DNA from: Candidatus Altimarinota bacterium
GTDB taxonomy: Bacteria; Patescibacteriota; Gracilibacteria; BD1-5; UBA2023
Assembly (NCBI GenBank): GCA_043771825.1
Contig: JAYVGV010000037.1
Location: 14,130-78,129 of the forward strand
Direction: 5' to 3'
Length of the DNA: 64,000 nt
In this document: piece after piece, positions 12,061 to 47,493 of the stretch
Position numbering within the stretch: position 1 is the stretch's first letter
Layout of the letters: each line of letters begins with the position of its first letter
The notes under the pieces: model-generated
Databases searched by the model: none
Told to the model about the DNA's origin: nothing
Seen by the model: the letters and a program-made list of their open reading frames with translations, nothing else
Program-made: the position numbers and the translations under genes

Positions 12061-12086
12061 AGAGGGGTTTCAAGATGAATTGAATT

Positions 12087-18466: not shown

Positions 18467-19438
18467 TTAAGAAATGAGTATACGAGCTATGAAGTCAAGT
18501 ATATTTTTATGATAAAAAATCGCTATAATCCATCCAATTCCTAGAAATGGTCCAAAGGGAATTTGGTTTTGTAGGAGGGGAGACCTTTGTTTAAAAAGAA
18601 GGAACAGTACCCCAAATATACTGCCTATTATATAAGCAAAAGCAAAGCTCGCTATCGCATGGATTGTCCCGAGAGTCAATCATGCGAAGAGTGCAATACG
18701 CAGATCGCCTCACCCTATCCATGTGGGTATCTCCTCTGAGTCAGATATGTCTTGTTTTTCTCTCAAAAAGAAAAGGAGCGTGATAGGAAATATAAAATAA
18801 GAGGCCACGAGCTCGAAGAGATCACGGAATTTTTGCTTTCGTATGAGATACCAGCCACCAGGAAGTATGATCTGAAGATAGAAGAAAGTATAGAGTATCC
18901 ATGCTGCGAGAAGGTGATCCAATACAAAATCTGCTCCACTTCCTATATAGGTAGAGCGATCAAAAAATAGAGCTTCCAGAGGACTATAGAAGATACTTCC
19001 TACAAGAAGAGCAAGATAGGCATATATAGCTGGTACGATAATCTGATCTGGTATCTCCATATAGCGAAGATCATAGAGGATATAGACTCATGTCACGAAC
19101 CCTGCAATAAGCATAAGGATATGGGTAGGAGAGAATAGCGTTCCTCCATCTTTGATATATCCATAGGATAGGAGTGTGAATATCAGCGCCATCAGTATTT
19201 CCGCAAGAGGATAGAAAAAGGGAATATGCGTAGAACAATGTTTACATTTTCATCTCTGAAATATATAAGAAAAAAGTGGTATGAGTTCAGAAGCTCAGAG
19301 GAGATGCTGACATTTGGGACATTCACTCCGACCCATGAGTATACCTCATTTACCACTGTGCCATCTATCGACGAGTACCGTAGAGAGACTCCCGAAGAGA
19401 AGTCCCAAAATGAGTGTAAATATAAGGAGAAGTATCAT
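18467..19438 (-). CDS. pilD: prepilin peptidase (A24 family)
   Basis: ATG 19438 to TAA 18467-18469. Track ORFs 18710..19060 and 18467..18679 are in the same frame. N-terminal Cys motif GRSECPKCQHLLGASELIPLFSYIFQRGKCKHCSTHI. C-terminal IPFGPFLGIGWIIAIF. Multiple TM helices. Confidence 0.9.
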
Positions 19439-22419: not shown

Positions 22420-22518
22420 TTTTATGCAAATCAAAGATCAAGAGAATAGTCTTGCCAAAGAGTGAAAATTTATATTCTCACTATTTCTTTCTATATGCAA
22501 GGGCTTTTCTCTCTAAAA

Positions 22519-24552
22519 ATGAGGTTATTGTTGGTAGTGACTCAGGAAATATGCTATGATTGTTCTATGTGATATCGATCATTTCTCATCTCGTGAGCTT
22601 TATTTCTCACGCTTTCTCCCCTTATCGTCATAGGGATTGACCCGACGACCTCATGAAGGATCATCGATAATTTTAAGCAAGAGCAATATGCTATACTCTT
22701 CGAGAATCTCCCATTTGACCAGAGTGGAGCGAGTGAAATATACGAGAAAGAGTATATCCTCAATGGCTTGGAGTGACTCCGCAAGCGACTCGAAGCTACA
22801 ACAAAGGTCTATCAGACTAGGAAATCCGCTACAACTGATAAAAAGATATCACTCGAAGAAGCAATAAATACTCTCGAGAATAGTATCGCTGATACGGTAG
22901 CAGATGCTTATAAGACTGAGAGATCTATGCAAGACAAAAATGACCGCATAGAAGAGTACCAAAATCTCTCTATCGATCTCTCGGTGCGTATAAAGAAAAA
23001 TAGAGTGACAATACTCAGCTATCTTGCTAATATTTATTCTCAGGGGGCACTCATTTTCGATGAAGAAAATAGAGTAGACATATTCCAGACACTTATCATG
23101 ACTGATACCGACAGTGATACCATATCCAATGATATCATCTATAAATCACTCGTGAGTATCCTCGGACAAAAATTCATCGAAGACTATAGAAGCCTCATGA
23201 AAGAGTATAATCTCATCCAACTCCATATACGAGATGAGGTCACTCTCCTTGAGGCAGATAGTCTTATCTTAAAAAGACAGAAGGCAACTCTCATATCACA
23301 GCGTGATTATAGAGAGCAGCTTCTCGAAGCGACTCAGTGACAAGAGCTTCTCTATGAGCGGTACATAAACGCACAAATAGATACACAGAAACAAGTAGAG
23401 ACTGCATGGAAAAATGCATCAGAGCAATATATCGTGTCGATAGAAAGTCTTCTCGAAAAAAATGGATGTAATAAGTGAAAAAAGACGGGAAAAGATATAG
23501 AAAAGTGTAGCAATATACTCTCTTTTCATAGAAATGAGCGCGCACTCAAAGATATAGAAATATCATCATGATCGACGAATATTATGTCTTGGCCTATACG
23601 TACTCCTACGAGTATATCAGCATTTTTTAAGGATACTTCTTATTTCAGAGTTGTATGATCACAGCATGATGCTATAGATATACCTATGCCTCAATGATCT
23701 GATATCTTGGCTACTATGGACGGATACGTGCACTATATACTTCCGCCAGTATCTGGAGGGTACTCCTATCTTGTTCTGAAACATCCCAATGGCTATATGA
23801 CTGTGTATGGACATCTCTCGGAGATATCAGTATTTCCCTATCAGTTTGTACGTAAGGGGGATGTCATAGCACGATCTGGAGGTGCTCCAGGTACACCTTG
23901 AGCTGGACCTATGACGACATGAGCTCACCTCCACCTCGAAGTATGGAAAGATAGAGAGTCGATCGATCCACTTCGGGTCCTCGATATTTCTATCCTCGAC
24001 TATTCGAATCTTCCATCGAGATACCAAGATAAATTCATCTCTGATATAGTAGAAAGAGTCTGAACTGGAGCTGATCTCTCAGGGTATGATCGCAAATTCA
24101 TCATCAAATGAGATACAGAAGAAGCACGCCAAAAATATCTTCTGCGTACATATGCTACTCGTGATTTCCAAAACTGGGATCTCTGGGTAGATACGGCTCT
24201 GGATGCTCGTATAGATCCGAGCTTCATCATGTGTGTATGACTTGCGGAGACGACTCTCGGTAACTATCTCAAAACTCCATATAATATAGGAAATGTCTGA
24301 AATACAGATAACGGAGATACGGCATCGTTTTCTTCGGTAAAAGAAGGTATCGCATGGATGGCATCTACATTTAATAATCGATACCTCTCGCAGTACAACT
24401 ATGTGAGTGAGCTCTCTCGATGGGGAAATCCTGACGGAGTCATATATGCTTCAAGTAATGCGAATTGGCATAATAATATTATCCGATGTATTTCTTCTCT
24501 TAAGGGAAGATTCGTAGAGGATAAATACAATTTTCGACTGAAAACTCAGTAA
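22519..24552 (+). CDS. bifunctional cell-wall hydrolase: coiled-coil + M23 peptidase + glucosaminidase/muramidase-like domain
   Basis: Track ORFs 22927..23340, 23707..23901 and 24358..24552 share a frame with only TGAs between them. M23 motifs: [68 protein letters not shown]. C-terminal CVGLAETTLGNYLKTPYNIGNVGN...YASSNANWHNN resembles the FlgJ/glucosaminidase fold. Start ATG 22519; ATG 22495 or 22567 are possible. Confidence 0.8.
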
Positions 24553-24712: not shown

Positions 24713-26062
24713 ATGCTGAAGGCTCGACAATTTCTGTTTCCTGCTTTTCTTCTCTTAGCACTCACTGGGATTATCTATGTCCTCTCGGCTTCTGAAGAGA
24801 CCCTGCTCTCTAAGAATTATGGTAATCCCCATGTTGTAGGCATTTTCAATACATGAGGGAATGCTGGCATGATATCTTTTGATGATGTGCCATATGGATA
24901 CTCAGGAGCTCAAGTGATATGATATGGAAGTACTGTTGTGACATTGACGGGTATATTTTGGATGGAGACGACTGGGTGGGCAACTTTCTCTGAGAGTCAA
25001 GTCACGATGATACCGCCAGTCTCATGAGATAACATCCGTGATCCCTGGTATCTCTCTGGATATGCCTGGAGTCCGAATGCTGGCTGGATCGCACTCAATC
25101 ACGGAGAGTCGTATGCATCAGGTGTAGCTTTCATGCCTGACATCAGTCAGCTCGTATGATATGGCTATAGTGAGAATCTTGGTTGGATACCCTTCTGAGA
25201 ATATTCTGGTTCTGGTATTGCTGTAAATATGAGTGATTGATTCATCTGAAAGGTATCGATCGCAGGGAGTATAGGATGATCCAAAACTTTCAATGTCCTC
25301 TATGATGTAGGAGGATCTTTTAATACTGTCTCCATGACAGCATTCGTGAATCTGGTGCGTAAAAATATCACGATACTGCTACGAAATGCAGGATCAAAGA
25401 TCAATACAAATCTCAGTGGACTCTGAGCTCAGTCATTCAATAAATCAATGATATTTCGAACGGAAAATAACCCGACATCAACATTTGTAAAATATTCAGA
25501 TATTAAAAATGCCTTCAACTTCGATCTCTCACGGAGCCTGATAGTGATAGGGGCTGACATATATATCGATGTAGATGCTCCAAATGCTATCTGATCCTCT
25601 CGAGCGATCATCGCTCTGAAAAATGAAAAAGGTGAATGAGGAAATATCTATATTGATGGATCGGTGAAGATTATAGAGTCAGTACTTTTTTCGGAGAGAT
25701 CTATCATATCTTGAGCAGAGTTTATCACGGGTTCACTCTCTTCATACTATGTCTCGAAGAAATCCGTATTTCTCGATATTCCACGGAACCAACTCTATAT
25801 CAAGTGAGCTATCTGAGGATTCAATACTATAGGCTGAAGCTCGAAAGATGATGGTGCTGTCTGTCCATATCTCAGTGATAACTCGATCTTATGTAGCTAT
25901 GATAACGCTATCAAATATGATTGGAACTATTTCCGTATATACAACTGATCTCCCGCCCGACGAGCCTACCCAAATAGCTCGAAAGATGCATTCTCCGTCA
26001 TCATAGAGTACGACCCTCGTATCGTCCAAGATCCACCTCCAGGACTGGAGACTCTCAACTAA
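24713..26062 (+). CDS. 449-aa secreted GW-motif protein, partner of fibre protein 1
   Basis: ATG 24713 to TAA 26060-26062. I checked every line in this frame: about 17 TGAs, no TAA/TAG. Signal/TM FLFPAFLLLALTGIIYVL. Repeated GWATF / AGWIAL / LGWIPF motifs. Ends ...VIIEYDPRIVQDPPPGLETLN. Paralog of 40240..41589, with identical length. Confidence 0.75.
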
Positions 26063-26117
26063 TAGCCTTCTCATCGAAGTGACAGTCCCTCTTCGTATAC
26101 TCCTTATTTTTCCTACT

Positions 26118-29100
26118 ATGTCTTTCTTTCGTATACCATTCATCGTTGTTCTACTTTCATTGAGTAATGTAGCTATGACAGGAGCTGTAAGCTATCCATC
26201 TACAGGTCCTGCAGGAAGCTATTCAGGATGAAGCTTTGGGACATACCTCCAGAACTTGATCACCAATCCTTGTCCTCTATGACAAGTGATGACAAGTTTT
26301 AGTACATGAAGTTCTGACTATGGTAGACCCAATTGTGTATTTGCTTCACTTCCACCATGAGTATTTGGCAATACCGTATACTATAATGGTAGCTCATGGG
26401 TAGCGAGTAACGTCATATATAATGATGCTGTCAATGTCGGTATCTGACTCGGGGGATTAGTGCCACAAGCAAGACTAGAAGTAGGCTGAGGAGTGAAGAT
26501 CGCTGGTGATACCGCTCTCTGCAATACCGGGAAAGCCGGTACTATACGATATAATGGTACGAATGTCGATTATTGTAATGGTACAACTTGGTGATCTCTC
26601 GGATGATCAGGAGGATGGTGACTCACGGGAAATGGGGGAACAAATTCAGGAACCAACTTCCTCGGAACGACAGATAATATCGATCTCGTATTCAGACGCA
26701 ACAATATCGAAGGGATGCGTCTCTCTGGTGCGAGTGGCAATCTCGTGACGACTGTAGATGCCACGATCAATGGAGTGATAGTAGGACGAGGAGGAGGGAA
26801 TATTGATACCAACACCGCGAATGGATCGGGTGCTCTCTTCTCCAACACCACAGGAGATAGCAATACCGCGAATGGAGTCGCTGCTCTCTATTCCAACACC
26901 ACAGGAATCTACAACACCGCAAATGGAGCCTTTACTCTCCAAAACAACATCACGGGAAGCTTTAATACCGCGAATGGAGCCTCCGCTCTCATCAGCAACA
27001 TCACAGGTAGCGACAACACCGCAAATGGACATGGCGCATTAGGAAATAATACTACTGGAAACTCCAACACCGCGAATGGACTGAGCGCATTAGTACGTAA
27101 CACCACTGGAACCAACAACACCGCGAATGGAGTCTTTGCTCTCTTCTTCCACACCACGGGAACCGGCAACACCGCGAATGGATTTCGGGCTCTCTACAAC
27201 AACATCACGGGAAACTTTAATACTGCACTTGGGAGCTCTGCAGGATCCGCTATTACCACTGGTTCATCGAATATTGCCATAGGATACAATGCTCAGGTAG
27301 CGTCTCCTACCGGATCGAATCAGCTCTCTATCGGGAACTGGATCTATGGAAGTGGTGGGAATATCGGTATCGGTACCTCTACTCCATGAGCTCGGCTCGA
27401 AGTGGCAGGACAAGTGAAGATCACAGGTGGTTCTCCATGAATTGGAAAAGCCCTAATCTCAGATGCTACAGGTCTCGCAAGCTGGCAGACTCCAAGTGGT
27501 GGCAGTGGCTGTATACCGAGTGGAACGGGTGCAGATAATACTTGTCTTTGAACAGGGGCTTTACAACTCAATACAATTGGAACACTAAATACAGCGATAG
27601 GGAATCAAACATTGAGTAAAAATACTACTGGTTTTATAAATACATCAATTGGTGATAGAGCCTTACGAGATATGACAATAGGTGATTCAAATACTGCTAT
27701 CGGATGATGATCTATGAAACTTAATGTTTCTTGAACGAATAACACAGCAGTATGAGCAAATTCTTTAGTCAACCATACTTCAGGCAATAAAAATGCTGCA
27801 TTTGGTGAATATACTCTCAACGCTCTTACGAGTGGTAATGCAAATATTGCCATCGGTAGTGCAGCTTTCTATACTCTGACTTCAGGTTCAGATAATATAG
27901 CTCTTTGAGCAAATTCTACCTTAACTGTAGGTTCCAATAATATCGCTATAGGGAATAATCTTGCTTTAGCATCTTGATCAATAAACAAACTCAATATCGG
28001 TAATTGGATCTATGGAAGTGGGTGAAATATCGGTATTGGTACTTCTACTCCATCCGAAAAACTCGAAGTGGCTGGAGGAGATGCTATCATCTATGGAGTG
28101 AGAGTAGGAAGAGGAAGTGGGGCTATTGCTACGAATACAGCAGTAGGATCTGGTGCTCTCTTCTCCAACACCACAGGATTCTATAACACCGCGAATGGAG
28201 GGAGTGCTCTCGGCTCCAACACCACAGGATTCTATAACACCGCGAATGGAGGCATTGCTCTCTACTCCAACACCACTGGGGGCTGGAATACCGCGAATGG
28301 ACTCAATGCTCTCTACTCCAACACCACGGGATGGTATAACACCGCGAATGGAGCCTCTGCTCTCCAGAACAATACCACGGGAGAATTCAACACCGCACTC
28401 GGCTCTCAGGCAGGATCAGGTATCACTACTGGATCATCGAATATTGCCATAGGATACGGTTCTCAGGTAGCATCTGCTACTGGATCGAATCAGCTCTCTA
28501 TCGGGAACTGGATCTATGGAAGTGGTGGGAATATCGGTATCGGTACTGCTACTCCATGAGCTCGGCTCGAAGTAGCAGGACAAGTGAAGATTACTTGAGG
28601 TGCACCCTGAGTGAATAAAGTCCTCATCTCAGATGCTACAGGTCTCGCGAGTTGGCAGACGGTGCCAGCATCAACGAGCTCATGGAATATCCTCGGAAAT
28701 AGTGGTACCGTCGCAGGTACCAACTTCCTCGGAACCACGGATAATATCGATCTCGTATTTAAGACGAATAATATAGAACAAGCAAGATTGTATGCTTCTA
28801 ATACCGGTGGCATATCTCTCTGAAAGTCAAATAATAGCGTGACTACTGATAGATCATATATAATCGGTGATACCAATACTCTCAGTGGTTCATTTGGCTT
28901 TATATTTTGAAGATCGAATACTCTGGTAGGCGTAGGTGCAGATATGATACTCTGATACAATAATCAGCTTACTACATCATATGGTCTAGTGAATGTCATC
29001 GGATCAAATAATGTCAAAACGGGATCATGGGGAACTGTCATATGAAGATGAAATACTGTCACGGGTGGTGATAGTACGATAGTGATGTGAGAATCAAACT

Positions 29101-32100
29101 CTATAACAGGACATAATGCTATCGTCATGGGAAACGGGAATAATGCGCCGTATAATAATGACACGATAATCTATGGAAATGCGAACTCTCTCGACACAAA
29201 TATACATTATAATGTACTGAATGGTATATCGAATAAGGCAACTACCAATGGTTGAATGGGATGACGTATAGCATATGGTATAGCCAATAGCTCCCAACAA
29301 GGCTGAGCTATAACTATAGGATCATATAATACAGGATCAGCATCCAATGCTATAGCTATAGGATCACGTATCGATAATAACATCGCAAACTCAGTACAAA
29401 TAGGTCCAAATGATGCTTCGAAAATCACTATCCTTTCTTGATGACAGATGGGTATCGGTACTTCTACTCCATCAGCTCTACTCACGGTCTCAGGTTCGGC
29501 ACTCATCACGAGTGACCTCACAGTCCAAGGGAAGGTGATCTCTGATACCTTCGTGAATCGTACCGTGAATAATGTCACGATCTCAGGATCCCTCCTGCCT
29601 GATCTCGCAGCTCCTCTCGCTTACCGTGATATCGGAAATAATACGACGCAGAGCTGGAACAATCTCTATCTCTCTGGTCAGGTGACTATCAAGGGTGGCG
29701 CTCCCTGAGTAAACAAGTTTCTCACCTCAGATGCTACTGGTCTCGCGAGTTGGCAGACAGTGCCAGCTTCTCTGAACTCATGGAATATCCTCGGAAATAG
29801 TGGTACCGTCGCAGGTACCAACTTCCTCGGAACGACAGATAATATCGATCTCGTATTCAGACGCAACAATATAGAGGGGATGCGTCTCTCTGGATCGAGT
29901 GGCAATCTCGTGACGACTGTAGATGCCACGATCAATGGTATAACCGTAGGAAGAGGAGGTGGCGCGATAGCAACCAATACTGCTGTCGGGTCTGGTGCAC
30001 TTCAGGCTAACACCACAGGAAGCAACAACACCGCGAATGGAGCTAATGCTCTCTCCTCCAACACCGATGGATCCAACAACACCGCGAATGGAGCTAGTGT
30101 CCTCGCCTTCAACACCACGGGATACTCCAACACCGCGAATGGACATTCTGCTCTCTACTCCAACACCACGGGATACTATAACACGGCGAATGGCGTCTCT
30201 GCTCTCTACTCCAACACCACTGGGGGCTGGAATACCGCGAATGGATCCCTTGCTCTCCAGTCCAACACCACAGGAAGCAACAACACCGCGAATGGAATAC
30301 AGGCTCTCCTCTCCAACACCACGGGATACTGGAATACCGCGAATGGAGAGGGTGCTCTCCTCTCCAACACCACAGGAAACAGCAATACCGCGAATGGAAG
30401 GTATGCCCTTGCTAACACCACAGGAAATAGCAACATCGCACTTGGGATTGCTGCAGGATCGACTATCACCACTGGATCATCGAATATCGCTATCGGTAAT
30501 GCTGCACAAGTAGCATCTGCTACCGGATCCAATCAGCTCTCTATCGGGAACTGGATCTACGGAACGAGTGGGAATATCGGTATCGGTACCGCGACTCCAT
30601 GAGCTCGGCTCGAAGTCGCAGGACAAGTGAAGATAACTGGTGGTACTCCTGGTCTCGGTAAGATCCTCATCTCAGATGCTACAGGTCTCGCAACATGGCA
30701 GACCCCAATGGCTTCTCTATCAGGATCGTTCTGGTCTCTCCTTGGAAATAGTGGTACGGTCGCAGGTACCAACTTCCTCGGAACGACAGATAATATCGAT
30801 CTCGTATTCAGACGCAACAATATAGAGGGTATACGTCTCTCTGGTGCGAGTGGGAACCTCGTCACTATAGTAGATGCTACGATCAATGGTGTAAGAGTGG
30901 GAAGAGGAGGAGGGAATATAGGGAGTAATACCGCGAATGGATCGGGTGCTCTCTCCTCCAACACCACGGGAACCTCCAATACTGCGAATGGAATACAGGC
31001 TCTCTGGCTCAACACCACAGGCTTCAATAACACCGCGAATGGAGCCGTTGCTCTCGCCTACAACACCACGGGAACCTCCAATACCGCGAATGGAGTGCAG
31101 GCTCTCTGGCTCAATACAACAGGCCTCAACAATACCGCGAATGGAGCGCAGGCTCTCCGGTCCAACACCACGGGAAACTGGAATACCGCGAATGGACATT
31201 CTGCTCTCTACTCCAACACCACGGGATACTATAACACGGCGAATGGCGTCTCTGCTCTCTACTCCAACACTACAGGAATCTATAACACCGCGAATGGATC
31301 CCTTGCTCTCTACTCCAACACCACAGGCTTCAATAACACCGCGAATGGAGCGCAGGCTCTCTATTTCAATACGAGTGGATCCAATAATACGGCGAATGGT
31401 CAGAGTACTCTTGCCTTCAACACCACGGGAGTCGGCAACACCGCGAATGGAATACAGGCTCTCTATTCCAATACGTCTGGAAGTGCTAATGCCGCGAATG
31501 GTGCTAGCGCTCTCTTCTCCAACACCACTGGAAGTGGTAATACAGCGAATGGAGCCAATGCCCTCTACTTCAACACCACTGGAAACTTCAATACCGCGAA
31601 TGGAGTGCAGGCTCTCCAGTCCAACACCACTGGATCGGATAATGTGGCGAATGGAGTCTCTGCTCTCCGCTTCAATACCACGGGAACCGGTAATACAGCG
31701 AATGGATCCCTTGCTCTCTACTCCAACACCACTGGGGGCTGGAATACCGCGAATGGACTCAATGCTCTCTACTCCAACACCACGGGATGGTATAACACCG
31801 CGAATGGTGGAGGTGCTCTCAATTCCAACACCACGGGAAACTTCAACACCGCACTTGGACTCTTTGCAGGCAACCTTATCACCACAGGATCATCGAATAT
31901 TGCTATAGGCTACGGTTCTCAGGTAGCGTCTCCTACCGGATCGAATCAGCTCTCTATCGGGAACTGGATCTATGGAAGTGGTGGGGATATCGGTATGGGT
32001 ACCTCTACTCCATGAGCTCGGCTCGAAGTCGCAGGACAAGTGAAAATCACAGGTGGTTCTCCATGAATTGGAAAAGCCCTAATCTCAGATGCTACAGGTC

Positions 32101-33296
32101 TCGCAAGCTGGGGAACTCCTATCAACTGTACAGCATCTGGAAGTGGGCTCAATAATATTTGTTATGGTACCTTCTCCCTACAAAATAATACTACAGGACA
32201 AAATAATGTCGCCTATGGAAACGAGGCACTCAGAAATAATAACGGAGGAAGTGCGAATGTGTCCCTCTGATATGGGTCTATGTACTACAATACGAGTGGA
32301 TCGAGCAATGTGGGAATCGGTGTATATGCTCTCAATAGTAATACTACTGGTGTTGCGAATGTCGGTATCGGTCCAGATAGTCTTGCATATGCAAGTACAG
32401 TGAGCTATAATATCGCTTTGGGAAGTTCTTCACAGAAAGAAAATAGATCTTGAAACAATAACGTAGCAGTAGGTGCAGAAGCTCTCAGGCTTAACTTCAC
32501 TGGATCCTTTAATTCAGCATTTGGAAATGCAGCAGCTACTCAGATGCAGTCCACTGCAAGTAGTTTTGTAGAATGAAATAATGCGTTTGGAGCCTATGCT
32601 CTCCAAGGAGGAAGTAGTACAGGTAGTCTCAATACTGGATATGCTAATTCGGCATTTGGTAACTATGCCCTTCTCGGAACCACAGGAACTCCGACTACAG
32701 GATTCCAGAATTCAGGATTTGGTAATACTTCTCTTCAGACAGTGACAAGTGGATCCAATAATGTCTGAGTAGGATATGGAGCAGGGAATGGACTCACTTC
32801 AGGATCCAACAATATCTTTATCGGTGCCAATATCGTTCCCGTCTCAAATACTGCTTCAGATCAGCTCTCTATTGGGAACTGGATTTATGGAAGTGGGTGA
32901 AATATAGGTATCGGAGTATCTAGTCCAACACAAAAACTCCACGTGAATGGAAATGTCCTTGCTGATGCATTCCTCTACGTATCTGATGCTCGCATGAAGC
33001 AAGACGTGACAGGTATAGAGAATGCTGATGATATACTCACGAAACTTCAGGGAGTGCGATTTGTCTGGAAAGCAGATGGTCGAGCGGATATAGGATTTAT
33101 CGCTCAGGAAGTAGAGAAGGTACTTCCTGACCTTGTCCATACTGATAGTACTGGCATGAAGAGTGTCGAATATGGGAATATCATCCCAGTTCTTGTCGAA
33201 GGATATAAGTCAGAAAAATCTCGTGCTGATCTACTCGAATCTCGAATGGACACACTTGAGGCCCGACTCCAATCCCTTGAATCTGCTAATAAATAA
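26118..33296 (+). CDS. giant modular tail-fibre-like surface protein 1 (2392 aa) with C-terminal Peptidase_S74 chaperone domain
   Basis: Track ORFs 26715, 28068, 28611, 29448, 29760, 30627 and 32943 are all in the frame of ATG 26118. I read the gaps between them codon by codon and found only TGA. TAA at 33294-33296. Signal peptide MSFFRIPFIVVLLSLSNVAMTG. About seven modules, each ending NQLSIGNWIYGSGGNIGIGTSTPGARLEVAGQVKITGG.PG.GK.LISDATGLASWQT. Four arrays of 17-aa SNTTG..NTANG..AL repeats. C-terminus VSDARMKQDV...RFVWK...IGFIAQEVEKVLPDLV...VEYGNIIPVLVEG plus a coiled coil. Confidence 0.85.
26800..27235 (+). repeat. 51-nt (17-codon) tandem coding repeats, array 1 of fibre gene 1
   Basis: TCCAACACCACAGGA recurs at 26841 and 26892 (51-nt period). 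About 8 units of SNTTGxxNTANGxxAL[YF]. Confidence 0.8.
27294..27485 (+). repeat. 192-nt module-junction repeat, copy A
   Basis: Matches 31920..32111 with 4 mismatches by my alignment. Shorter, related copies at about 28492-28590 and 30525-30645. Confidence 0.85.
28149..28402 (+). repeat. 51-nt tandem coding repeats, array 2
   Basis: About 5 units: ALFSNTTGFYNTANGGSALGSNTTGFYNTANGGIALYSNTTGGWNTANG... Confidence 0.8.
29990..30440 (+). repeat. 51-nt tandem coding repeats, array 3
   Basis: About 9 units: ALQANTTGSNNTANGANALSSNTDGSNNTANG... Confidence 0.8.
30930..31865 (+). repeat. 51-nt tandem coding repeats, array 4 (longest)
   Basis: About 18 units. Almost free of stop codons in several frames on both strands, which explains track ORFs 30937..31908(+) and 30720..31199(-). 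Confidence 0.8.
31920..32111 (+). repeat. 192-nt module-junction repeat, copy D
   Basis: Direct repeat of 27294..27485. The offset is 4626 nt (3 x 1542), so the copies are in the same reading frame. Confidence 0.85.
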
Positions 33297-33304
33297 CTAA
33301 AATT

Positions 33305-33796
33305 ATGAAAAATAGATATCATCCCATCCACTATGTACTTGTTGTATCCATCTTAGGAGTACTTGCTCATTATATTATCGCTTTTGCAATAGTTGATGAG
33401 TGAAGAACACTTCAGAGTTTTACTTTACCAGGAGGAGCAATATCAACATCATTTCAGTCACTTCAAAATGGTTGGAGGAATAATGGTATAGAGACTTTTG
33501 ATATCACTACTCCTGAAGCGTGCTATACTATAAATGTAAGTGATACACGAAACTTCTTCATACCTACGAGGACACTCCAGGAATGGACAAGGTTTAAAAT
33601 CGCAGGATTAAATACGATAACGCCTTATACTTGCTGATCAACATGTGATATCAATAGTGGTCCTGTGATGTCAGAGGTAGTATGTCCACCTAAAGAGATG
33701 TGTACATTTGGTATTAAGTGTATACAATATGCAAATGAATGTCAAATGATAGCAGCATGATGAACTGTCGGCCCAAACTGTCAGCTAGCTATTTAA
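33305..33796 (+). CDS. small Cys-rich membrane-anchored protein (163 aa)
   Basis: ATG 33305, 9 nt after the fibre-1 stop, to TAA 33794-33796, with four in-frame TGAs. TM helix YVLVVSILGVLAHYIIAFAIV. C-terminus has 8 Cys (TPYTCGSTCDINSGPVMSEVVCPPKEMCTFGIKCIQYANECQ). No family recognised. Confidence 0.55.
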
Positions 33797-40239: not shown

Positions 40240-41589
40240 ATGAATCGTAAACTTATATTTGCGATCATGCTTATCGTTCTTATGGGTGCAGGTATTTTTA
40301 ATACCTTCTGAGTAGGGAAATTTTTTCGTCTCCGAGGAGATTTTATACCGAGTCTCTCCTGGTCTTGAGGATATCCTGGGAGAGTATTATTTGATATTGC
40401 GACTGGAGCAACAAATAGTGGATTTGCTCCAGGGATTGATCTAGATGGTTATCTTTCGGGTTCATTCTGGCTTGGGAATGTCGGGTGGACTACCTTTAAT
40501 CATAGTACTACAGGTGTCGCTCAAGCACGAGTCCTCTGTGCGAATATCGTATTTAATGACCCAAATATTACCTGTCCTGTCGATGGATTTGCTTGGAGTC
40601 GAAATAGCGGATGGATCGCCCTATCAGGATCATTCATCGATGGAGGATCCTGAGTATACTATAATCCTGCAGCATGACGTATACAATGATTCGGGCATAG
40701 TACAGCACTCTGATGGATACCTTTCTATGCTGATACGACCACGCCAGTGACTACGACGACTCAAACGTGAGTCCTCCTTAATGGTATGGGGCTTAACTTC
40801 ATCTGAAAGATCGCTATAATAGGGAATATAGCAGGTACACGAATATTTAATGTCACGAATCAGCAGGTATGATATGTATTCACGACGATCAACCATGCAG
40901 ATATGCTCAATATTATCCGAAAAAATATCGCACTCATATCGCGAAATGCGAATCCTACAGAACTCGCAGATCCTTTTAGTACGAAGTTTAATTTTCTTCT
41001 TCAAAAAGGCTCTGACTATGATACGAGTATCCCATGATGGACTTGGCCGACTTCCAAAAAATCGATCATCATCATCGGATGAGATGTCATACTCGATCAA
41101 TCTCAAATCTGACTTATTAATACAAATAAAGCCCTCATAGTTCTCAAAGATGAGAGCGGAAGCTGAGGAAATATCATCATACGAGAAGGAGTGGGTCGTA
41201 TATATGCATTTATCTATGCTGAAGGTTCTATATATTCCTGAGATAAGACGGCTACATGACTCATAGTACCTTATGTGGCGAAGTGAGTATGGAATATACC
41301 AGGAAATCAGCTCTATATCAAGGGGGCTATCATCTCAAAAAATACTATCTGAGGATCACTCCAGTCCCCACCTACTTGTCCTGTAGTGATAGCGAACTGT
41401 GATGCACTCAATTCGCAAATCTATGATGTGAACTATTTTCGTACCTATGACTCTACAGATCTCACTCAGAGGAATATCCCCAGTATGTACTATAATGATC
41501 TACGCTTTTCTGCTGCATCTACCGTCATTGAATACAATCAATCTCTCGCGACGGATCCACCTCCAGGGATATCATCAATATTCCAATAA
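40240..41589 (+). CDS. 449-aa secreted GW-motif protein, partner of fibre protein 2
   Basis: ATG 40240 to TAA 41587-41589, read line by line (about 25 TGAs, no TAA/TAG). Shares these with 24713..26062: GWIAL, LGWIPF, FIGK[VI].I.G.I.G..[TI]FNV, IRKNI, GGNI.I, PGNQLYIKGAI, NTIGGS, and the C-terminus VIEYNQSLATDPPPGISSIFQ. Confidence 0.75.
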
Positions 41590-41610: not shown

Positions 41611-44600
41611 ATGTCTCTTCGTTTTACTGTAGCTCTCTCCCTTCTCTTCTTCTCGTACGCTACGATATCAGTACATGCTCTTGCATATCCTACGACTACA
41701 CCATCTGGAGAAACCACAGGAGGTACATATCGTACGTACTTTGATAATATTTTCCAAGATCTTTGAAGTGACTGTAATCTCAGTGGAAGAGTGATCGGAG
41801 GATTTGATTCTGTATGAGTACCGATATGTGTCACACCAGTTTCTTCAGGATTATTCCTCTCGGGCCAGACGAGTGGTGATACGATTAGATTCGATGGGAC
41901 GCTCTGGGTAAGAAATAATCTTCTCTATAACAATGGTACAGCTATAGGCATAGGTACGACGAGCCCTGCGTATATACTCGATGTTGGTGGAACAGCGAAC
42001 TTCATAGGATTGCGTATGCCGACGGGTGCTGGATCAGGAAGGGTGCTCACTTCGAATGCTGCTGGAACTATGTACTGGGCAAGCTCCATATCTGGTGCCA
42101 CAGCATCGGGTATCACAGGGGGGACACAGAGCTATATACCAAAATTTGGAATCTGATGAAATGGACTTATCCTCTCTCAATTTTTCGATAATGGCACAAA
42201 TATCGGTATTGGTACAACTATACCAACAGCGAAGGTAGATATATCGACTGTAGGAACGGCACCATTCCAGATACGAAGTGGAAATGGAAGTGCATCTTAT
42301 GTGAATAATCAAATACTCTTCTGATGGAATGGGAGTGATGGATATAGACATGCTATCAAGACTCGACACAATGGAGGAGGACTTTCTGATAATGCTATAG
42401 ATTTTTATGTATGGGATCAATCAACAGATGTTTCTACTACTATAGGAACTCGAAGGGTGATGACTCTCGAAGGTGCGAATGGTGGGTCAGTCGGTATAGG
42501 TACCCCTACAATTTCTTCTTGAGCAAGACTCGAAGTGGCAGGGCAGATAAAAATCACAGGAGGCGATTTCTGATCATGAAAAGTACTCACGAGTGATGCC
42601 AGTGGTCTTGCCGCGTGGCAACTGCCAGGAGCAGCATCGAGTGTCAGTGCAACAGGTATTACTGGCGGCTCAGGCTACTATATTCCATTTTTTTGATCCT
42701 GATGAAATGGGCTTTACTCGTCATTCATGTATTTTACATGATGAAAACTAGGGATCAATACTACAAGTCCGACATATATGTTCGATGTACAATGAGATAA
42801 TAGCATTATCCGTGCTTGAAGTGGTTTTTGTCTGGGTATGACAGCATCAGGATGTATCACGAATTGGTCAGATCTGAATAATATGGTGAGAAGTAGTGGT
42901 ACTCCGAATTATATAGCAAAATTTGATACGGGATGACTTATCGGTAATTCGCAATTATATGAAACTGGAGGTAATCTTTATATATGAGATATTCCAGCAA
43001 TTCTTTGAGGAGCAGCTACGATATGATATGTTACTATAGAAGCAAATGGAAGTACAAATTCATCGAATCCATTTCTTACACTTTCTGAAATGTGATGACA
43101 AGAATGTCGTATGTGGATTACTTGAGCGAATAAACTCGGATCAAACTGTAGCTGGAATGCCGGAGGTGGTACATATCAGCCAAATCAAGTCATAAAAGCT
43201 GATACAGCAGGAAGCTCATTGACAGGTACGAATATGTATAATGTAGGACAGTTTGTCGGAATTTGAACTAATAATCCTACTACAACATTGACAATAGACT
43301 CTGGAGTTGATGATGATTCTGGGCTGAGGTTTTCCCGTGTTGATACATCCACACCACTTATCTCAAATGGTGTACTCGCTCTTTGAGTGAATGCTTCAGG
43401 GAAAGTAATACCGATCAGTCCTATTAGTAATATCGCAGTATACAATGGTGTCGATAGAGTAACTGTAATGAGTCCAAATCCTGATCTTAGTACATTTAAC
43501 ATTACCTATGATTTTAATCGGTTTTTTGCTATTCCAGGAAAACAATCATTCGTCGTAAGTAGTGGAGATTCTTCCTCGTATAATGGTCCATATTTTAAAG
43601 AAAACGGTACGAGTGCACTTTGTTCTGTCAATGGTACTTATGGTACAAGTCCATATGATTGTGCTGATCCTGATCCAGCTACAGGTATTTCTGCAAGTCC
43701 ATTTAATTCTTTTACTATGACAGCAAAGGGTGATACATTTGGATATCAGATCGCGCTTGGGGCACGCTGAGATGCTCCGCTTTTTGCTCGAAGTGGTCGA
43801 TATAATGGCTCACAAACAGGCTGACTCTATACCAATGACTCACCTTACCAGACTCCAGCACCATGGCAGAAAGTCCTCTCGCTTCCAGCGCATCATCCTG
43901 AGTATCTCTATATCAATACAGGACTGAGTTCTCAGCTCCAATCTCAAACATGATGATGAAATGTCGGTATCGGTACGACTACACCACAGAGTCGATTCGA
44001 AGTATGGACTGGTTCTACTACGACAGCACTCATACATTTTCGTGGAGTGAATAATGTCGGTATGGGTCTTGGAGCTTCGCGTCCTCAACAGAGTGGAAAT
44101 GCGAATAGTGCATTCGGAAATGAATCATTATTCACTCTGACATCAGGATATTCCAATACTGCTATAGGATATCGTTCTCTTCGTCTTACAGCTGCTGGAT
44201 TCAATAACTCTGCAATTGGACAAGAGGCACTCTATAATAATAATGGTTGAAGCTGGAATACAGCAGTCTGATACCAAAATCTTTATTCTGTAACATCAGG
44301 AACGAGAAATATAGGACTTGGCGCACAAGCTCTCTATAACCTCAGTACATGAAATGATAATATCGCTATCGGATATCAGGCAGCTCGTGTTCTAGCTGGA
44401 AGTGCAATATCCAATAATATTGCCATATGATATCAATCTCTCTACTCTGCTACAACATCAAATCTCCTCGCTATCGGATATCAAGCCCTTTATCATAATG
44501 CATGAGGAATAGCAAATCAATGAGTAGGATATCAAGCATTGTTTTCAAATACGTCAGGAAACTACAATACGGCTGAATGATATGAAGCACTGAGTGCAAA

Positions 44601-47493
44601 TACTACAGGAGCAAACAATACGGCTATCGGATATCAGGCACTTGATACAAACTCTACTGCTAGTAATAATACTGCTATCGGATATCAGGCACTTCTCCTC
44701 AATACAGCATCATCAAATACCGCTGTATGACAACTTGCACTCAGGTCCAATATAAGCTGATGAGCGAATACAGCACTAGGATTAGAGGCTTTATATGCGA
44801 ATACTACTGGCACGAGTAATGTCGCTATAGGACTTCAGACGATGAGCTCAAACTCTACTGGCTGGGAGAATGTCGCTGTATGAAAGTGAGCTATGAGTAG
44901 TATATGATCTGCACCACAAAACAATACAGTAATAGGTACAAATGCTGGAAGATGAGGTGGGACAAGTAGCTCGAATAGCTCGAATAATGTAATTATCGGT
45001 CATACAGCTTGATATGCAATAAATGGTGGAAATAATAATGTATTTCTCGGTACCAATGCATGAAGTGGTATCACAACAGGCTCAAATAATATCGTGATAG
45101 GAAATAATGCTTCACTCGCTTCAAATACTCTCTCGAATCAGCTTTCTATCGGAAACTGGATCTATGGAAGTGGATGAAATATCGGTATCGCGACGAATGC
45201 TCCCACGACGAATCTAGATATCAATGGAACTATACGAATCAGAGGAGGAGCACCTGGTGCTGGAAAGATACTCATGTCAGATGCTGTATGACTTGCCAGC
45301 TGGCAGACGCCGACAGGTGCGGCTGCTATACCATGGGCAATCGCGGGAAATGCTGGTACTGATCCAAATAGTAACTTTGTCGGAACTACTGATAATTTTG
45401 CTCTGACGTTCCGTACAAATAATATCGAAAATATGCGACTTCTCACGAATGGCAATCTCGGTATCGGTACGAGTACTCCTGCATCTCGACTCAGTATATC
45501 ATGAGGAGGATTCTCTGTAGGATACCCTACCAATGCAGCACCGACTGATGGAGCTATAATATCTGGAAATATGGGTATCGGGATTATTTCTCCTTCAGAA
45601 AAGCTCACTGTCAATGGTACTATAGAGAATCCTGCTGATAATAGCGCTATCGTATCCGGAAATGATCGGGCACTAGGATTTATCAAAAAAAGTGGACTTA
45701 TAGCTCAAGTATCAACGAACAATGTGAATCCAATAATTTTCTCAAAACTGAGTACTGCAACTATTACTTCAGCAAATGTAGCAGGATGAACTCTTACAGA
45801 ACTCATGCGTATACAAAATAATGGTGATGTCGGTATCGGTACAGCTGCTCCATGAGCACGACTTGATGTGGCAGGACAAGTAAGAATAACTGGTGGATCT
45901 CCTGGACTTGGGAAGATCCTCGTTTCTGATGCTACGGGTCTTGCGAGTTGGGAGACTGCTGCGACTGGATCATTTGCTGGATGGTGAGTCCTCGGAAATG
46001 CAGGAACTACTGCTACGACGAACTTCCTCGGAACCACAGATAATGTCGATCTCGTAATCCGTACGAACGCTACTGAAAAAGTGCGAATCCAAGCAGGATG
46101 AAACGTCGGTATCGGTACCAATAATCCTTGAGAGAAACTTGATGTGCTCGGTAATATCCGTGCTGGAACTGCTACTCCAAACACCATGATGGGAACACAT
46201 CCATCGTATGGAAATACCTATTCAGCTTGGTGGAAGTCTGGACTTGACTATTCTCTTCTGACGGATGCTACTCATACGTATCTCAATGCTCCACAAGCAA
46301 CATGAAATATCCATTTCCGTACAGCAAATACAGATAAGATGTTCCTGCGTGGAAGTGATGGGAATGTCGGTATCGGTAATACAGCTCCATGAGCAAGACT
46401 CGAAGTCACATGACAAGTGAAGATCACTGGTGGTGTTCCAGGGGCTGGGAAAGTCCTCACTTCCGATGCTACGGGTCTCGCGACTTGGGTACTTCCGACA
46501 CTGAGCTTCACAGGTGGTACGACGAACTATCTCACAAGATGGACATCAGCGAGTACTCTCGGTATAGGAGTGACATTTGATAATGGTACAAATGTCTGAA
46601 TTAATACTACTTCACCTGCGTCTAGACTCGATGTCAATGGTAATCTCGCAGTACGATGAGATGCAGGAGGGTCTATCTATACATGGAATGGGTGAGACAC
46701 AAGTTGGAGATGGGGAACCTCCAACGTTCCATGATATGCTCGATTTATCGCAACAGGGTACAATCAATTTGCAATTTTTGGTGCTGCAACAGGAAACGGA
46801 TTCTCAGTATGAGATGCGAGTACAGGGCTTTCCGCATTTGAAGTGACGAGTTCTTCAAATGCATATAAATCATACTTTAGATGAAATGTCGGTATCTGAG
46901 TTGATCCGACGCAGTCTCTCGATGTGACTGGGCAGATACGTATACGAGGAGGCTCTCCATGAGCTGGGAAGTATCTCGCTTCTGATGCGAGTGGAGTAGG
47001 GACATGGACGACGCCAGCAGGAAGCCAGACGGGTACGTATATCTATCGTATGGCGACACCACAAAGCTCTACCAATACGACTCTTGCATGAGTGACACAG
47101 CTTACCAGTACGCCACTCCCAGTATGACCATATCAATTCGAAGTGCTAGGAAGATTCCAGTCAGCTGCAGCGAATACTGGTCTTGGTCTTACTCTTGCTC
47201 AGACAAGTGGTGCAAGTACAAATTTCATGGGAACTATGAGTGCACAGCTGACAAATTCTACGATGTATAGCGAATCATTTATGGTCCAATGAACTGCAGT
47301 GACGACTACAGGTGTTCCTCTAGCAAATACAGATTACATAGTGATGATGAGAGGATCATTTGATATCACGGCTACTGGTACAGTAGCGGTACGGATGGCT
47401 ACAGAAAATAATGGTACTCAGGTCATCCTCGGTGTGTGAACTGCACTCATCATCAAGTCACTTGATCCAAATATAGCAGGAGGAGGTATATAA
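41611..47493 (+). CDS. giant modular tail-fibre-like surface protein 2 (1960 aa), no S74 domain
   Basis: ATG 41611, 21 nt after the partner gene. I read every line to TAA 47491-47493 and found no TAA/TAG but many TGAs, including TGATGATGA at 43951-43959. The N-terminus is paralogous to fibre 1 (AYPTTTPSGETTGGTYRTYFDNIF vs SYPSTGPAGSYSGGSFGTYLQNLI). Recurrent N[VI]GIGT..P...L[DE]V.G...I and GG.PG.GK.L.SDA.G.A.W junctions. Distinct beta-rich C-terminal domain. Confidence 0.85.
44090..45130 (+). repeat. degenerate coding repeats (NTAIGYQAL type) in fibre gene 2
   Basis: Series of SGYSNTAIGYRSL, FNNSAIGQEAL, NDNIAIGYQAA, SNNIAIGYQSL, ANNTAIGYQAL... units, many with TGA-encoded Gly. Related to, but more diverged than, the NTANG arrays of fibre 1. 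Confidence 0.7.

What the first reader, a model, noticed from the sequence alone, without database searches (positions are those of the whole stretch)
32982..33296. Phage-type intramolecular chaperone (Peptidase_S74) domain at the C-terminus of a cellular 2392-aa protein
The sequence is ...LYV-S|DARMKQDV-TGIENADDILTKLQGVRFVWKADGRADIGFIAQEVEKVLPDLVHTDSTGMKSVEYGNIIPVLVEGYK followed by a coiled coil. It matches the S-D-x-R-x-K autocleavage site and core of the chaperone domain. That domain trimerises endosialidase tailspikes and several phage tail fibres and then cleaves itself off. This implies that fibre 1 is a homotrimer released from its chaperone after folding. Fibre 2 lacks the domain, so the two fibres must fold by different routes.
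Basis: partly seen in the sequence, partly recalled or inferred. Interest (0 to 1): 0.75.

Follow-up and report, generated by a model that had tools for sequence, protein, structure and literature searches.

The report
Self-cleaving chaperone cap on Gracilibacteria fibre
A 2392-residue surface-fibre protein of a tiny, uncultured Gracilibacteria bacterium ends in the same self-cleaving trimerisation chaperone used by phage tail fibres, a design already shown in the prey-recognition fibres of the predator Bdellovibrio, so this is a real but not unprecedented find.

Summary
Read with genetic code 25 (TGA = Gly), ORF 26118-33296 (+) encodes a 2392-aa protein. Its only Pfam match is Peptidase_S74 (PF13884) at residues 2289-2341 (E 4.6e-14; 1.3e-15 on the C-terminal piece; full-length profile match).

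- Ser2289, Asp2290 and Lys2294 (SDxxxK) are invariant in 79 relatives.
- A confident AlphaFold model matches the solved MyRF, endosialidase and GA-1 chaperone domains.
- The locus is chromosomal (CysS, ValS, MetG, Lgt, type IV pilus genes) and syntenic in other Candidatus Gracilibacteria MAGs.
- Fibre 2 (41611-47493) has no S74 module, and there is no other copy in the window.

Cleavage is expected before Ser2289 (V2288|S2289), not after it. A phage-type S74 cap on cellular fibres is also already known: Bdellovibrio MAT fibres come in S74 and non-S74 forms, and their self-cleavage has been shown experimentally.

What is new here is the host lineage (CPR, code 25), a lineage-specific N-terminal domain, and a conserved 449-aa partner gene upstream of each fibre. 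Public databases hold these genes as fragments cut at TGA or as translations with Trp at conserved Gly positions.

Verdict: new member of a known kind, moderate interest.

The parts
26118..33296 (+). Fibre 1 gene (g22): 2392-aa precursor of about 239 kDa with 42 in-frame TGA = Gly codons
   Evidence: ORF under code 25; its only Pfam family is PF13884 at the C-terminus; an orthologous 2534-codon ORF lies in Gracilibacteria MAG locus L009
26118..26186 (+). Predicted Sec signal peptide (residues 1-23, MSFFRIPFIVVLLSLSNVAMTGA|VS)
   Evidence: Read from the sequence only (n-h-c pattern, small residues at -3/-1). It aligns with fibre 2 (VHA|LA) and with the L009 N-terminus. No predictor was available, so this is inferred.
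26187..26441 (+). Lineage-specific N-terminal domain (residues 24-108, YPSTGPAG...GG.F.TY, Cys52/Cys73), shared with fibre 2
   Evidence: Fibre 1 vs fibre 2: 30% identity over 137 aa, E 3e-14. Also shared with L009 (58%) and L013. No BLAST similarity to the Bdellovibrio fibre N-termini (Cys positions).
26442..32903 (+). Modular stalk: four blocks of 17-aa (51-nt) NTANGxxALxSNTTGxx repeats (39 copies), 4 'NFLGTTDN' entry motifs, and SIGNWIYG + capping-loop + GGxPGxGKxLxSDAxG junction modules
   Evidence: Motif map; DNA repeat families D1-D6 with junction copies up to 97% identical; capping loops counted; these loops align to solved Bdellovibrio MAT fibre structures 8ond, 8ojn, 8oml, 8ol4, 8on4
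32904..32945 (+). Last capping loop (IGIGVSSPTQKLHV, residues 2263-2276) just upstream of the chaperone
   Evidence: Motif search. It aligns to the MyRF stalk (GRVGINTDRPDEALVV) and to the Bd2133 loops.
32979..32984 (+). Predicted scissile bond V2288|S2289; Ser2289 (32982-32984) is the predicted nucleophile
   Evidence: Ser is invariant in 39 and 79 aligned relatives. The bond position follows MyRF P586|S587 and Bd3182 A781|S782. Cleavage itself is inferred.
32997..32999 (+). Lys2294, predicted general base of the Ser-Lys dyad (SDARMK)
   Evidence: Invariant column K72 in A1 and A2. Equivalent to MyRF K592 and endoNF K916.
32982..33140 (+). Peptidase_S74 / ICA core (residues 2289-2341), including F2315 and W2317
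   Evidence: Pfam PF13884. PDB profile hits 6f45, 7dc3, 8jov, 3gud. Model pLDDT 94-98; Foldseek hits 7dc3, 3gw6, 3gud. In the alignment F2315 and W2317 align with MyRF Y615 and Y617, which that paper shows are needed for cleavage.
33171..33290 (+). C-terminal long helix (residues 2352-2391), the predicted trimeric coiled coil of the chaperone
   Evidence: Helix 130-169 of the 170-aa model, pLDDT 97-98. It aligns to the MyRF and S16 gp37 C-terminal helices. In MyRF this coiled coil drives trimerisation. The trimer state was not tested here.
24713..26062 (+). g21: 449-aa partner protein directly upstream of fibre 1 (N-terminal hydrophobic segment, no known family)
   Evidence: Paralogue of g29 (35% identity, E 8e-55). 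Homologues lie directly upstream of the fibre N-terminal domains in L009, L008 and L083. No Pfam, PHROG or NCBIfam hit.
33305..33796 (+). g23: 163-aa protein starting 9 nt after the fibre 1 stop (hydrophobic N-terminus, Cys-rich C-terminus)
   Evidence: Conserved after the S74 fibre in L008 (80%) and L009 (47%). No family hit. Its role is unknown.
22495..24552 (+). g20: M23 peptidase upstream of g21 on the same strand
   Evidence: Pfam PF01551, E 1.7e-21. 91% identical homologue in the same position in L009.
40240..41589 (+). g29: 449-aa partner protein upstream of fibre 2
   Evidence: Paralogue of g21. 84% identical homologue lies upstream of the fibre 2 orthologue in L008.
41611..47493 (+). 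Fibre 2 gene (g30): 1960 aa, 68 TGA codons, same N-terminal domain and 12 capping loops, but ending in an orphan beta-rich tip of about 150 aa instead of S74
   Evidence: No Pfam hit. No S74 by a dedicated profile. Stalk 33-50% identical to fibre 1. The tip has one full-length homologue only, P0117.

Best explanation
Fibre 1 is a secreted, cell-surface, homotrimeric fibre of a Candidatus Gracilibacteria bacterium (CPR, genetic code 25).

Proposed maturation:
1. The precursor (239 kDa) is exported by its signal peptide.
2. The three C-terminal S74 / intramolecular-chaperone-autocleavage domains associate through their terminal coiled coil. They template the interdigitated beta-helical stalk from the C-terminus backwards.
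3. Once the trimer is correctly formed, the Ser2289-Lys2294 dyad of each chain cuts the V2288|S2289 bond of a neighbouring chain.
4. This releases a 104-aa (11.6 kDa) chaperone and exposes the distal tip (...NGNVLADAFLYV) of a mature fibre of about 3 x 225 kDa.

By analogy with Bdellovibrio MAT fibres and phage receptor-binding proteins, the exposed tip and stalk clefts most likely bind a surface glycan or other epitope of the bacterium that this episymbiont or predator lives on. Fibre 2 is a paralogous fibre of the non-S74 type, whose own globular tip takes the place of the chaperone.

Shown here: the domain identity, the intact catalytic motif, the fold, the chromosomal context, the synteny, and the absence of S74 in fibre 2.
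Inferred: trimerisation, cleavage, surface display and host binding.
For: - Domain: PF13884 at E 1.3e-15 and 4.6e-14 with full profile coverage. Tail-fibre PHROGs match the C-terminus down to 2e-30.
- Catalytic residues: S2289, D2290 and K2294 are invariant across 39 and 79 relatives, including Bdellovibrio fibres. F2315 and W2317 align with MyRF Y615 and Y617.
- Solved relatives by profile: S16 gp37 6f45 (4e-22), MyRF 7dc3 (8e-17), 8jov, GA-1 3gud, and five Bdellovibrio MAT structures.
- Fold: AF2 model pLDDT 94-98 over the module. Foldseek finds MyRF ICA (E 1.7e-7, TM 0.69), the endoNF chaperone 3gw6 and 3gud. There are 413 viral S74/ICA models at E <= 1e-3.
- Mechanism precedent: Ser-Lys dyad, trimer-dependent cleavage and a coiled-coil driver in MyRF (PMC8326128). 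Self-cleavage of a cellular fibre's S74 domain is abolished by S782A in Bd3182 (PMC10769870).
- Cellular context: CysS, ValS, MetG, Lgt, prepilin peptidase, a pilin and ABC-F flank the genes. The same M23 - g21 - fibre - g23 - ValS order occurs in other Gracilibacteria MAGs.
- Fibre character: 8 capping loops that align to MAT and MyRF stalks.
Against: - No experiment or multimer model was available, so trimerisation and cleavage rest on homology.
- The signal peptide is read by eye only.
- Similarity to Bdellovibrio fibres is limited to the last 130-175 residues.
- The biological role (host or prey binding) has no direct evidence here. The host of this organism is unknown.
- The fold of the fibre 2 tip could not be obtained.
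Confidence: 0.8

Rival explanations
1. The gene is a phage or prophage tail-fibre gene (or part of a tailocin or phage-like particle) that happens to sit in the assembly, and not a cellular surface protein.
For: The module is typical of phage distal tail fibres. 544 phage records carry it at up to about 42% identity. PHROG tail-fibre families match it. One relative, P0020 in locus L006, lies on a 175-kb contig of unknown genes that looks viral.
Against: - No phage structural, packaging or integration gene was seen among the neighbours examined. The flanks are CysS, type IV pilus genes, M23 peptidase, ValS, Bac_transf, Lgt, ABC-F and MetG.
- g21 and g23 match no PHROG.
- The order fibre - g23 - ValS - Bac_transf - Lgt is conserved in other Gracilibacteria MAGs.
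- The protein has an N-terminal signal-peptide-like segment, which virion fibres lack.
- The gene uses the host's code 25 at the same density as housekeeping genes.
Confidence: 0.04
2. The S74 domain is retained as a permanent C-terminal trimerisation knob and does not cleave (a degenerate peptidase).
For: Cleavage was not tested. In MyRF some mutants trimerise without cleaving, so trimerisation and cleavage can be separated.
Against: Ser, Asp and Lys of SDxxxK are strictly invariant in 79 relatives. The aromatic positions needed for cleavage in MyRF are kept as F2315 and W2317. The closest characterised cellular homologue family (Bd3182) does cleave.
Confidence: 0.1
3. The fibre is correctly processed but serves self-adhesion, an envelope scaffold or biofilm attachment rather than recognition of a host or prey cell.
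For: Related CPR bacteria (Vampirococcus, Absconditabacteria) have a thick fibrous coat between their own stacked cells, and giant surface proteins are thought to build it (PMC8080830). Nothing here identifies a ligand.
Against: Every characterised S74-capped fibre is a receptor-binding device: phage fibres and tailspikes, and Bdellovibrio MATs. The genome keeps two fibres with different tips, which is the pattern of diversified recognition described for MATs. Two M23 cell-wall peptidases and type IV pilus genes lie nearby.
Confidence: 0.2

Closest known systems
Bdellovibrio bacteriovorus MAT (mosaic adhesive trimer) fibres, S74 subgroup, e.g. Bd3182 (Caulton et al. 2024, PMC10769870)
   Same: - A cellular, secreted, roughly 1000+ aa fibre that ends in an S74 domain with SDxxxK.
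- Repeated capping loops of the V/I-G-x-G/N-xxx-P-xxx-L type; fibre 1 loops align to the solved Bd2133, Bd1334, Bd2439 and Bd3182 structures.
- S74 and non-S74 paralogues coexist in one genome.
- After other Gracilibacteria, the best genome matches to the module are Bdellovibrio and Bacteriovoracaceae fibres at 41-48% identity.
   Different: - The N-terminal domain is unrelated at BLAST level.
- The stalk is about twice as long and is built from 17-residue NTANG repeats.
- The host is a CPR bacterium using code 25; relatives of this group are described as having a single membrane.
- Each fibre gene has a 449-aa partner gene upstream, which is not mentioned in the passages of the MAT paper that I read.
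- Similarity is limited to the last 130-175 residues.
Phage C-terminal intramolecular chaperone domains: K1F endosialidase (3GW6), GA-1 neck appendage (3GUD), T5 L-shaped fibre pb1 (4UW8), S16 gp37 (6F45)
   Same: Same Pfam family, same Ser-Lys dyad, same position at the extreme C-terminus after a beta-helical stalk, and the same fold.
   Different: Those are virion proteins without signal peptides, encoded in phage structural modules. Identity is 42% or less. 4UW8 and 3GW6 were not reached by the sequence profile at E <= 0.01; 3GW6 was reached only by fold.
Eukaryotic MyRF ICA domain (7DC3)
   Same: Best structural match (Foldseek E 1.7e-7, TM 0.69). Shares the upstream capping loop, SDxxxK, the aromatic pair and the C-terminal coiled coil.
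   Different: MyRF is an ER-membrane transcription factor. Cleavage there releases a DNA-binding trimer, not an adhesive fibre.
Giant surface proteins of Absconditabacteria and Gracilibacteria (Vampirococcus lugosii, PMC8080830; PTD-repeat protein of a BD1-5 genome, PMC6851277)
   Same: Very large, secreted, repeat-rich proteins in code-25 CPR bacteria, proposed to mediate attachment. Repeats break assemblies.
   Different: Those papers report WD40, PKD, integrin, fibronectin or PTD-repeat proteins. In searches of their main text for 'S74', 'endosialidase', 'tail' and 'fiber/fibr', no S74, endosialidase-chaperone or tail-fibre-like protein turned up, nor in a third Gracilibacteria paper.

Membership tests
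Peptidase_S74 / intramolecular chaperone autocleavage (ICA) domain (Pfam PF13884, MEROPS S74) | Profile match above the curated threshold | tested here: met
   57.9 bits (C-terminal piece) and 52.9 bits (full protein) against a gathering score of 22; profile positions 1-58 of 58
Peptidase_S74 / intramolecular chaperone autocleavage (ICA) domain (Pfam PF13884, MEROPS S74) | Ser-Lys catalytic dyad in an S-D-x-x-x-K motif | tested here: met
   S2289-D-A-R-M-K2294. S, D and K are invariant in alignments of 39 and 79 relatives. They are equivalent to MyRF S587/K592 and endoNF S911/K916.
Peptidase_S74 / intramolecular chaperone autocleavage (ICA) domain (Pfam PF13884, MEROPS S74) | Fold of the chaperone domain (small beta 'donut' plus long C-terminal helix) | tested here: met
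   AF2 model pLDDT 94-98 over the module. Foldseek finds 7dc3 (E 1.7e-7, TM 0.69), 3gw6 and 3gud at probability 1.0, and 413 viral models. The model is a monomer only.
Peptidase_S74 / intramolecular chaperone autocleavage (ICA) domain (Pfam PF13884, MEROPS S74) | Location at the extreme C-terminus, directly after a beta-helical or fibrous stalk | tested here: met
   The domain starts 13 residues after the last capping loop and runs to the stop codon
Peptidase_S74 / intramolecular chaperone autocleavage (ICA) domain (Pfam PF13884, MEROPS S74) | Trimer-dependent autoproteolysis that releases the chaperone | not testable with these tools
   Needs expression of the recoded fragment with S2289A and K2294A controls, or at least a multimer model
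Bdellovibrio-type MAT fibre family (Caulton et al. 2024) | Conserved beta-rich N-terminal domain of about 130 aa immediately after the signal peptide | tested here: not met
   BLASTP of the first 200 residues of fibres 1 and 2 against three Bdellovibrionota fibres matches only internal capping-loop segments, not their N-termini. The Gracilibacteria fibres have their own shared N-terminal domain. Fold-level similarity was not tested.
Bdellovibrio-type MAT fibre family (Caulton et al. 2024) | Repeated capping-loop motif on a trimeric beta-helical stalk | tested here: met
   8 motif copies in fibre 1 and 12 in fibre 2. They align to the solved MAT structures 8ond, 8ojn, 8oml, 8ol4 and 8on4. The trimeric state was not tested.
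Bdellovibrio-type MAT fibre family (Caulton et al. 2024) | C-terminus is either an S74 domain or an alternative tip domain; both kinds occur in one genome | tested here: met
   Fibre 1 has S74. Fibre 2 has none and ends in an orphan beta-rich tip.
Bdellovibrio-type MAT fibre family (Caulton et al. 2024) | Secretion and display on the cell surface | tested here: inconclusive
   An N-terminal signal-peptide-like segment is visible in both fibres and in L009. No predictor or localisation data were available.
Phage tail fibre or tailspike (virion receptor-binding protein) | Encoded within a phage or prophage structural gene module | tested here: not met
   The neighbours are housekeeping and envelope genes. 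g21 and g23 match no PHROG. Synteny with ValS and Lgt is kept in other MAGs.

The most novel reading that the evidence does not exclude
Gracilibacteria, and possibly many other CPR lineages, may recognise their bacterial hosts with a repertoire of phage-receptor-binding-protein-like trimeric fibres. These would be organised as two-gene cassettes: a dedicated 449-aa membrane-anchored partner plus a giant fibre. They come in S74-capped and non-S74 versions whose distal modules are exchanged with predatory bacteria and phages. Such a system would have stayed unnoticed because public gene calls cut the code-25 genes at every TGA or translate TGA as Trp. If this is right, the 449-aa partner would be a new anchoring or assembly factor with no counterpart in the MAT or phage systems.
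Probability: 0.4. Interest if true: 0.6.

Novelty: new member of a known kind. Interest (0 to 1): 0.4.

Why it matters
How CPR/Patescibacteria episymbionts find and hold their specific hosts is largely open. Type IV pili are the only well-supported device. A pair of phage-like fibres with interchangeable tips gives concrete, clonable candidates for host-specificity determinants in an uncultured, recoded lineage. The S74 cap also gives a simple biochemical readout: an 11.6-kDa fragment that should be lost in S2289A.

The finding extends the Bdellovibrio MAT idea, that predators borrow phage receptor-binding architecture, to a phylogenetically remote group described as single-membraned.

It also flags a practical problem. 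In public protein sets these genes appear as 100-300-aa fragments or carry Trp at conserved Gly positions. Domain surveys therefore under-count and mis-size them.

Tried and rejected
- **Fibre 2 tip fold.** The model of the only full-length homologue, P0117 (which has Trp where fibre 2 has Gly), had pLDDT 39 and was discarded. A PDB profile search gave only noise. Pfam and PHROGs gave nothing. So I cannot say which fold replaces S74.
- **Function of g21, g29 and g23.** No hit in Pfam, PHROGs or NCBIfam.
- **Strict membership of the MAT family.** Rejected, because the defining N-terminal domain is not detectable.
- **Prophage origin.** Considered and rejected on context and synteny.
- **Code 4 (TGA = Trp).** Rejected.
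- **Literature.** Searches for S74 together with CPR, Patescibacteria or Gracilibacteria found nothing. Term searches of three Gracilibacteria/Absconditabacteria papers found no such fibres. Caulton et al.'s supplementary table of MAT-like proteins lists Micavibrio, Ca. Uabimicrobium, Omnitrophica and Dokdonia but no CPR.
- **First structure job.** It was repeated with A2.
Full report
**1. The observation**

Under the standard bacterial code the region is a litter of short ORFs. With TGA read as a sense codon, a single frame is open from 26007 to 33296. It starts at ATG 26118 and gives 2392 aa with 42 in-frame TGA codons.

TGA encodes glycine, as shown by three independent checks:
- At paralogous positions of the internal repeats, TGA aligns with Gly 40 times, TGA 28 times, Ser 9 times and never Trp.
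- DNA repeat copies alternate AGT-GGT-GGG-AAT with AGT-GGG-TGA-AAT.
- In the window's cysteinyl-tRNA synthetase, TGA falls on invariant glycines of solved CysS structures.

This is genetic code 25, known from Gracilibacteria and Absconditabacteria.

**2. Is it a Peptidase_S74 domain?**

Yes, on four lines of evidence.
- Pfam PF13884 matches the last 170 residues at E 1.3e-15 (57.9 bits against a threshold of 22, all 58 profile positions). It matches the full protein at residues 2289-2341 at E 4.6e-14, and it is the only Pfam family found in the protein.
- Phage tail-fibre PHROGs match the same end, down to 2e-30.
- In alignments with 38 and 78 relatives, Ser2289, Asp2290 and Lys2294 are invariant. 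Phe2315 and Trp2317 align with the two MyRF tyrosines whose joint mutation abolishes normal cleavage.
- A profile of the module reaches solved chaperone domains: S16 gp37, MyRF, a tail fibre and the GA-1 appendage. An AlphaFold model with pLDDT 94-98 over the module matches the MyRF ICA domain (E 1.7e-7, TM 0.69), the K1F endosialidase chaperone and the GA-1 chaperone by Foldseek. It also matches 413 viral S74/ICA models.

The last 40 residues form one long, confident helix. This corresponds to the coiled coil that drives trimerisation in MyRF.

**3. Cellular or viral?**

Cellular.
- The window carries CysS, ValS, MetG, Lgt, a prepilin peptidase, a pilin, an ABC-F protein, a sugar transferase, two M23 peptidases and PKD-repeat surface proteins.
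- Nothing phage-like was found next to the fibre.
- A scan of one genome per species found the closest relatives of the module in Candidatus Gracilibacteria MAGs at 81% and 76% identity. In those MAGs the module also ends giant TGA-rich ORFs: 2534 codons with 82 TGA in L009.
- The order M23 peptidase - 449-aa protein - fibre - small protein (L009) and fibre - small protein - ValS - sugar transferase - Lgt (L005, L008) is the same as in the window.

So this is a conserved chromosomal locus of the lineage.

**4. Anatomy of the fibre**

- After a signal-peptide-like N-terminus comes an ~85-residue domain with a Cys pair. It is shared with fibre 2 (30% identity, E 3e-14) and with other Gracilibacteria fibres, but not with Bdellovibrio fibres.
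- The stalk is modular. It has four blocks of a 17-residue NTANGxxALxSNTTGxx repeat (39 copies, 51-nt period). It has four 'NFLGTTDN...' entry motifs. It has junction modules (SIGNWIYGSGGNIGIGTxTPGARLEV-AGQVKITGGxPGxGKxLISDATGLASWQTP) whose DNA copies are up to 97% identical.
- The IGIGTxxPxxxLxV loops are the 'capping loops' described for Bdellovibrio MAT fibres and MyRF. They align to five solved MAT structures.
- The last loop (residues 2263-2276) is followed by ...NGNVLADAFLYV and then the S74 module.

**5. Mechanism**

In every characterised S74 protein, three chaperone domains assemble and help the upstream triple beta-helix fold. A Ser-Lys dyad then cuts the chain once the trimer is right.

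The cut is N-terminal to the serine. In MyRF it is P586|S587. In Bdellovibrio Bd3182 the mature fibre ends at A781, before catalytic S782, and S782A blocks processing.

Transferred here, cleavage at V2288|S2289 would release a 104-residue, 11.55-kDa chaperone. It would leave a mature chain of 2265 residues (225 kDa) that ends in ...AFLYV.

The domain identity, motif, fold and context are shown. Trimerisation, cleavage, surface display and ligand binding are inferred. The Arg in its 'S-D-x-R-x-K' is also not a conserved position.

**6. Fibre 2**

Fibre 2 (41611-47493, 1960 aa, 68 TGA codons) shares the N-terminal domain with fibre 1, has 12 capping loops, and has stalk segments 33-50% identical to fibre 1. 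It has no Pfam hit.

A dedicated profile of the S74 module finds only the fibre 1 copy in all six frames of the window (E 4.9e-41; the next best is about 2). Its last ~150 residues are a beta-rich orphan with one full-length homologue in 5.8 billion proteins. I could not determine its fold.

That the tip replaces the chaperone is an analogy to the non-S74 MATs, where for example the Bd2133 beta-sandwich 'substitutes for the S74 chaperone'. It is not a result obtained here.

**7. Comparison with the known**

Caulton et al. (2024) described 21 MAT fibres in B. bacteriovorus. Thirteen end in S74 (SDxxxK) and eight end in other tips. The fibres are displayed on the predator and involved in prey handling. 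Their supplement lists S74-like MAT relatives in other predators.

The window reproduces that S74 / non-S74 pairing in a different phylum. After Gracilibacteria, the best genome matches of the module are Bdellovibrio and Bacteriovoracaceae fibres at 41-48% identity. This is slightly above the best phage matches at 38-42%.

Strict membership of the MAT family fails on the N-terminal domain. Similarity to Bdellovibrio fibres is limited to the last 130-175 residues. I therefore file fibre 1 as a genuine S74-domain protein and as a MAT-like fibre, not as a MAT orthologue.

I found no paper that links S74 fibres to CPR bacteria. Term searches of three Gracilibacteria/Absconditabacteria genome papers turned up no S74 or tail-fibre-like protein.

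**8. Novelty and score**

An S74 chaperone on a cellular fibre is published biology. The domain is also widespread in cellular genomes: 266 of the first 600 candidate stretches in the species-level genome scan encoded a relative, across many phyla. That lowers the surprise.

What is new is the lineage, the lineage-specific N-terminal domain, and the conserved 449-aa partner gene upstream of both the S74 and the non-S74 fibres (five of five cases). Also new is that public predictions hide these genes as fragments or carry Trp at conserved Gly positions.

This gives CPR biology a testable candidate for host recognition. Verdict: new member of a known kind, interest about 0.4.

Noticed in passing
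window 24713-26062 (+) and 40240-41589 (+): Each giant fibre gene is preceded by a 449-aa ORF (g21, g29) with an N-terminal hydrophobic segment, GW-rich repeats and a C-terminal DPPPG motif. The two are paralogues (35% identity, E 8e-55). A homologue sits directly upstream of a fibre N-terminal domain in L009, L008 and L083 as well, so five of five cases. No Pfam, PHROG or NCBIfam match. Because it accompanies both the S74 and the non-S74 fibre, it may be an anchor or assembly partner.
   Followed up: partly
window 33305-33796 (+): A 163-aa ORF (g23) with a hydrophobic N-terminus and a Cys-rich C-terminus starts 9 nt after the fibre 1 stop. It is conserved after the S74 fibre in L008 (80%) and L009 (47%). 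No g23-like gene is called downstream of fibre 2. No family match.
   Followed up: partly
window 22495-24552 (+) and 14131-15612 (-): Two M23 peptidases (cell-wall endopeptidase family). One is directly upstream of the g21-fibre 1 pair and is conserved there in L009 (91%). This could be relevant to attacking a host cell wall.
   Followed up: partly
window 32943-33296; proteins P0002, P0009-P0012, P0049, P0117: Public gene calls mis-handle these genes. The window's own fibre appears in NCBI, ENA and Logan as a 117-aa table-11 ORF (P0002). All 116 hits in the homologue search are under 300 aa. Several carry W exactly where Gly is conserved (DIWFIAQ, WNVWIWTTTP), as if TGA had been translated as Trp (code 4).
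   Followed up: partly
window 26810-31900: The fibre 1 gene contains 31+ register-shifted copies of a 51-nt unit and junction modules up to 97% identical at the DNA level. Local GC rises to 0.52 against about 0.40 for the window. Such repeats may explain why relatives sit at contig ends (L005, L010, L029), and they could allow recombinational length or module variation.
   Followed up: partly
window 6952-12135 (-); also 15723-16403 (-) and 18467-19438 (-): Another giant surface protein (g08, 1727 aa) has at least 4 PKD domains, a C-terminal membrane span and a tail with repeated IPDWLK motifs. It lies next to a pilin (N_methyl motif) and a prepilin peptidase, so the window is rich in envelope and attachment genes.
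   Followed up: partly
L071, L080, L065 (MAGs labelled Candidatus Peribacteria): The ORFs ending in the S74 module in these loci contain 5-14 in-frame TGA codons; in L071, for example, 1098 codons are open with TGA as sense against 126 under table 11. Either these MAGs use a recoded TGA or the frames are broken.
   Followed up: no
L006 (ENA contig k127_85472, 174,924 bp): A relative of the module (P0020, 53% identity) is a separate 279-aa ORF directly after a 1405-aa ORF and before a Laminin_G_3 protein. The contig's other genes have no Pfam hits and it looks like a large phage. Here the chaperone may be encoded apart from its fibre.
   Followed up: no
window 47020-47490 (+): The ~150-residue C-terminal tip of fibre 2 is an orphan. 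It has one full-length homologue among 5.8 billion proteins and no Pfam, PHROG or PDB match. Its fold and ligand are unknown.
   Followed up: partly
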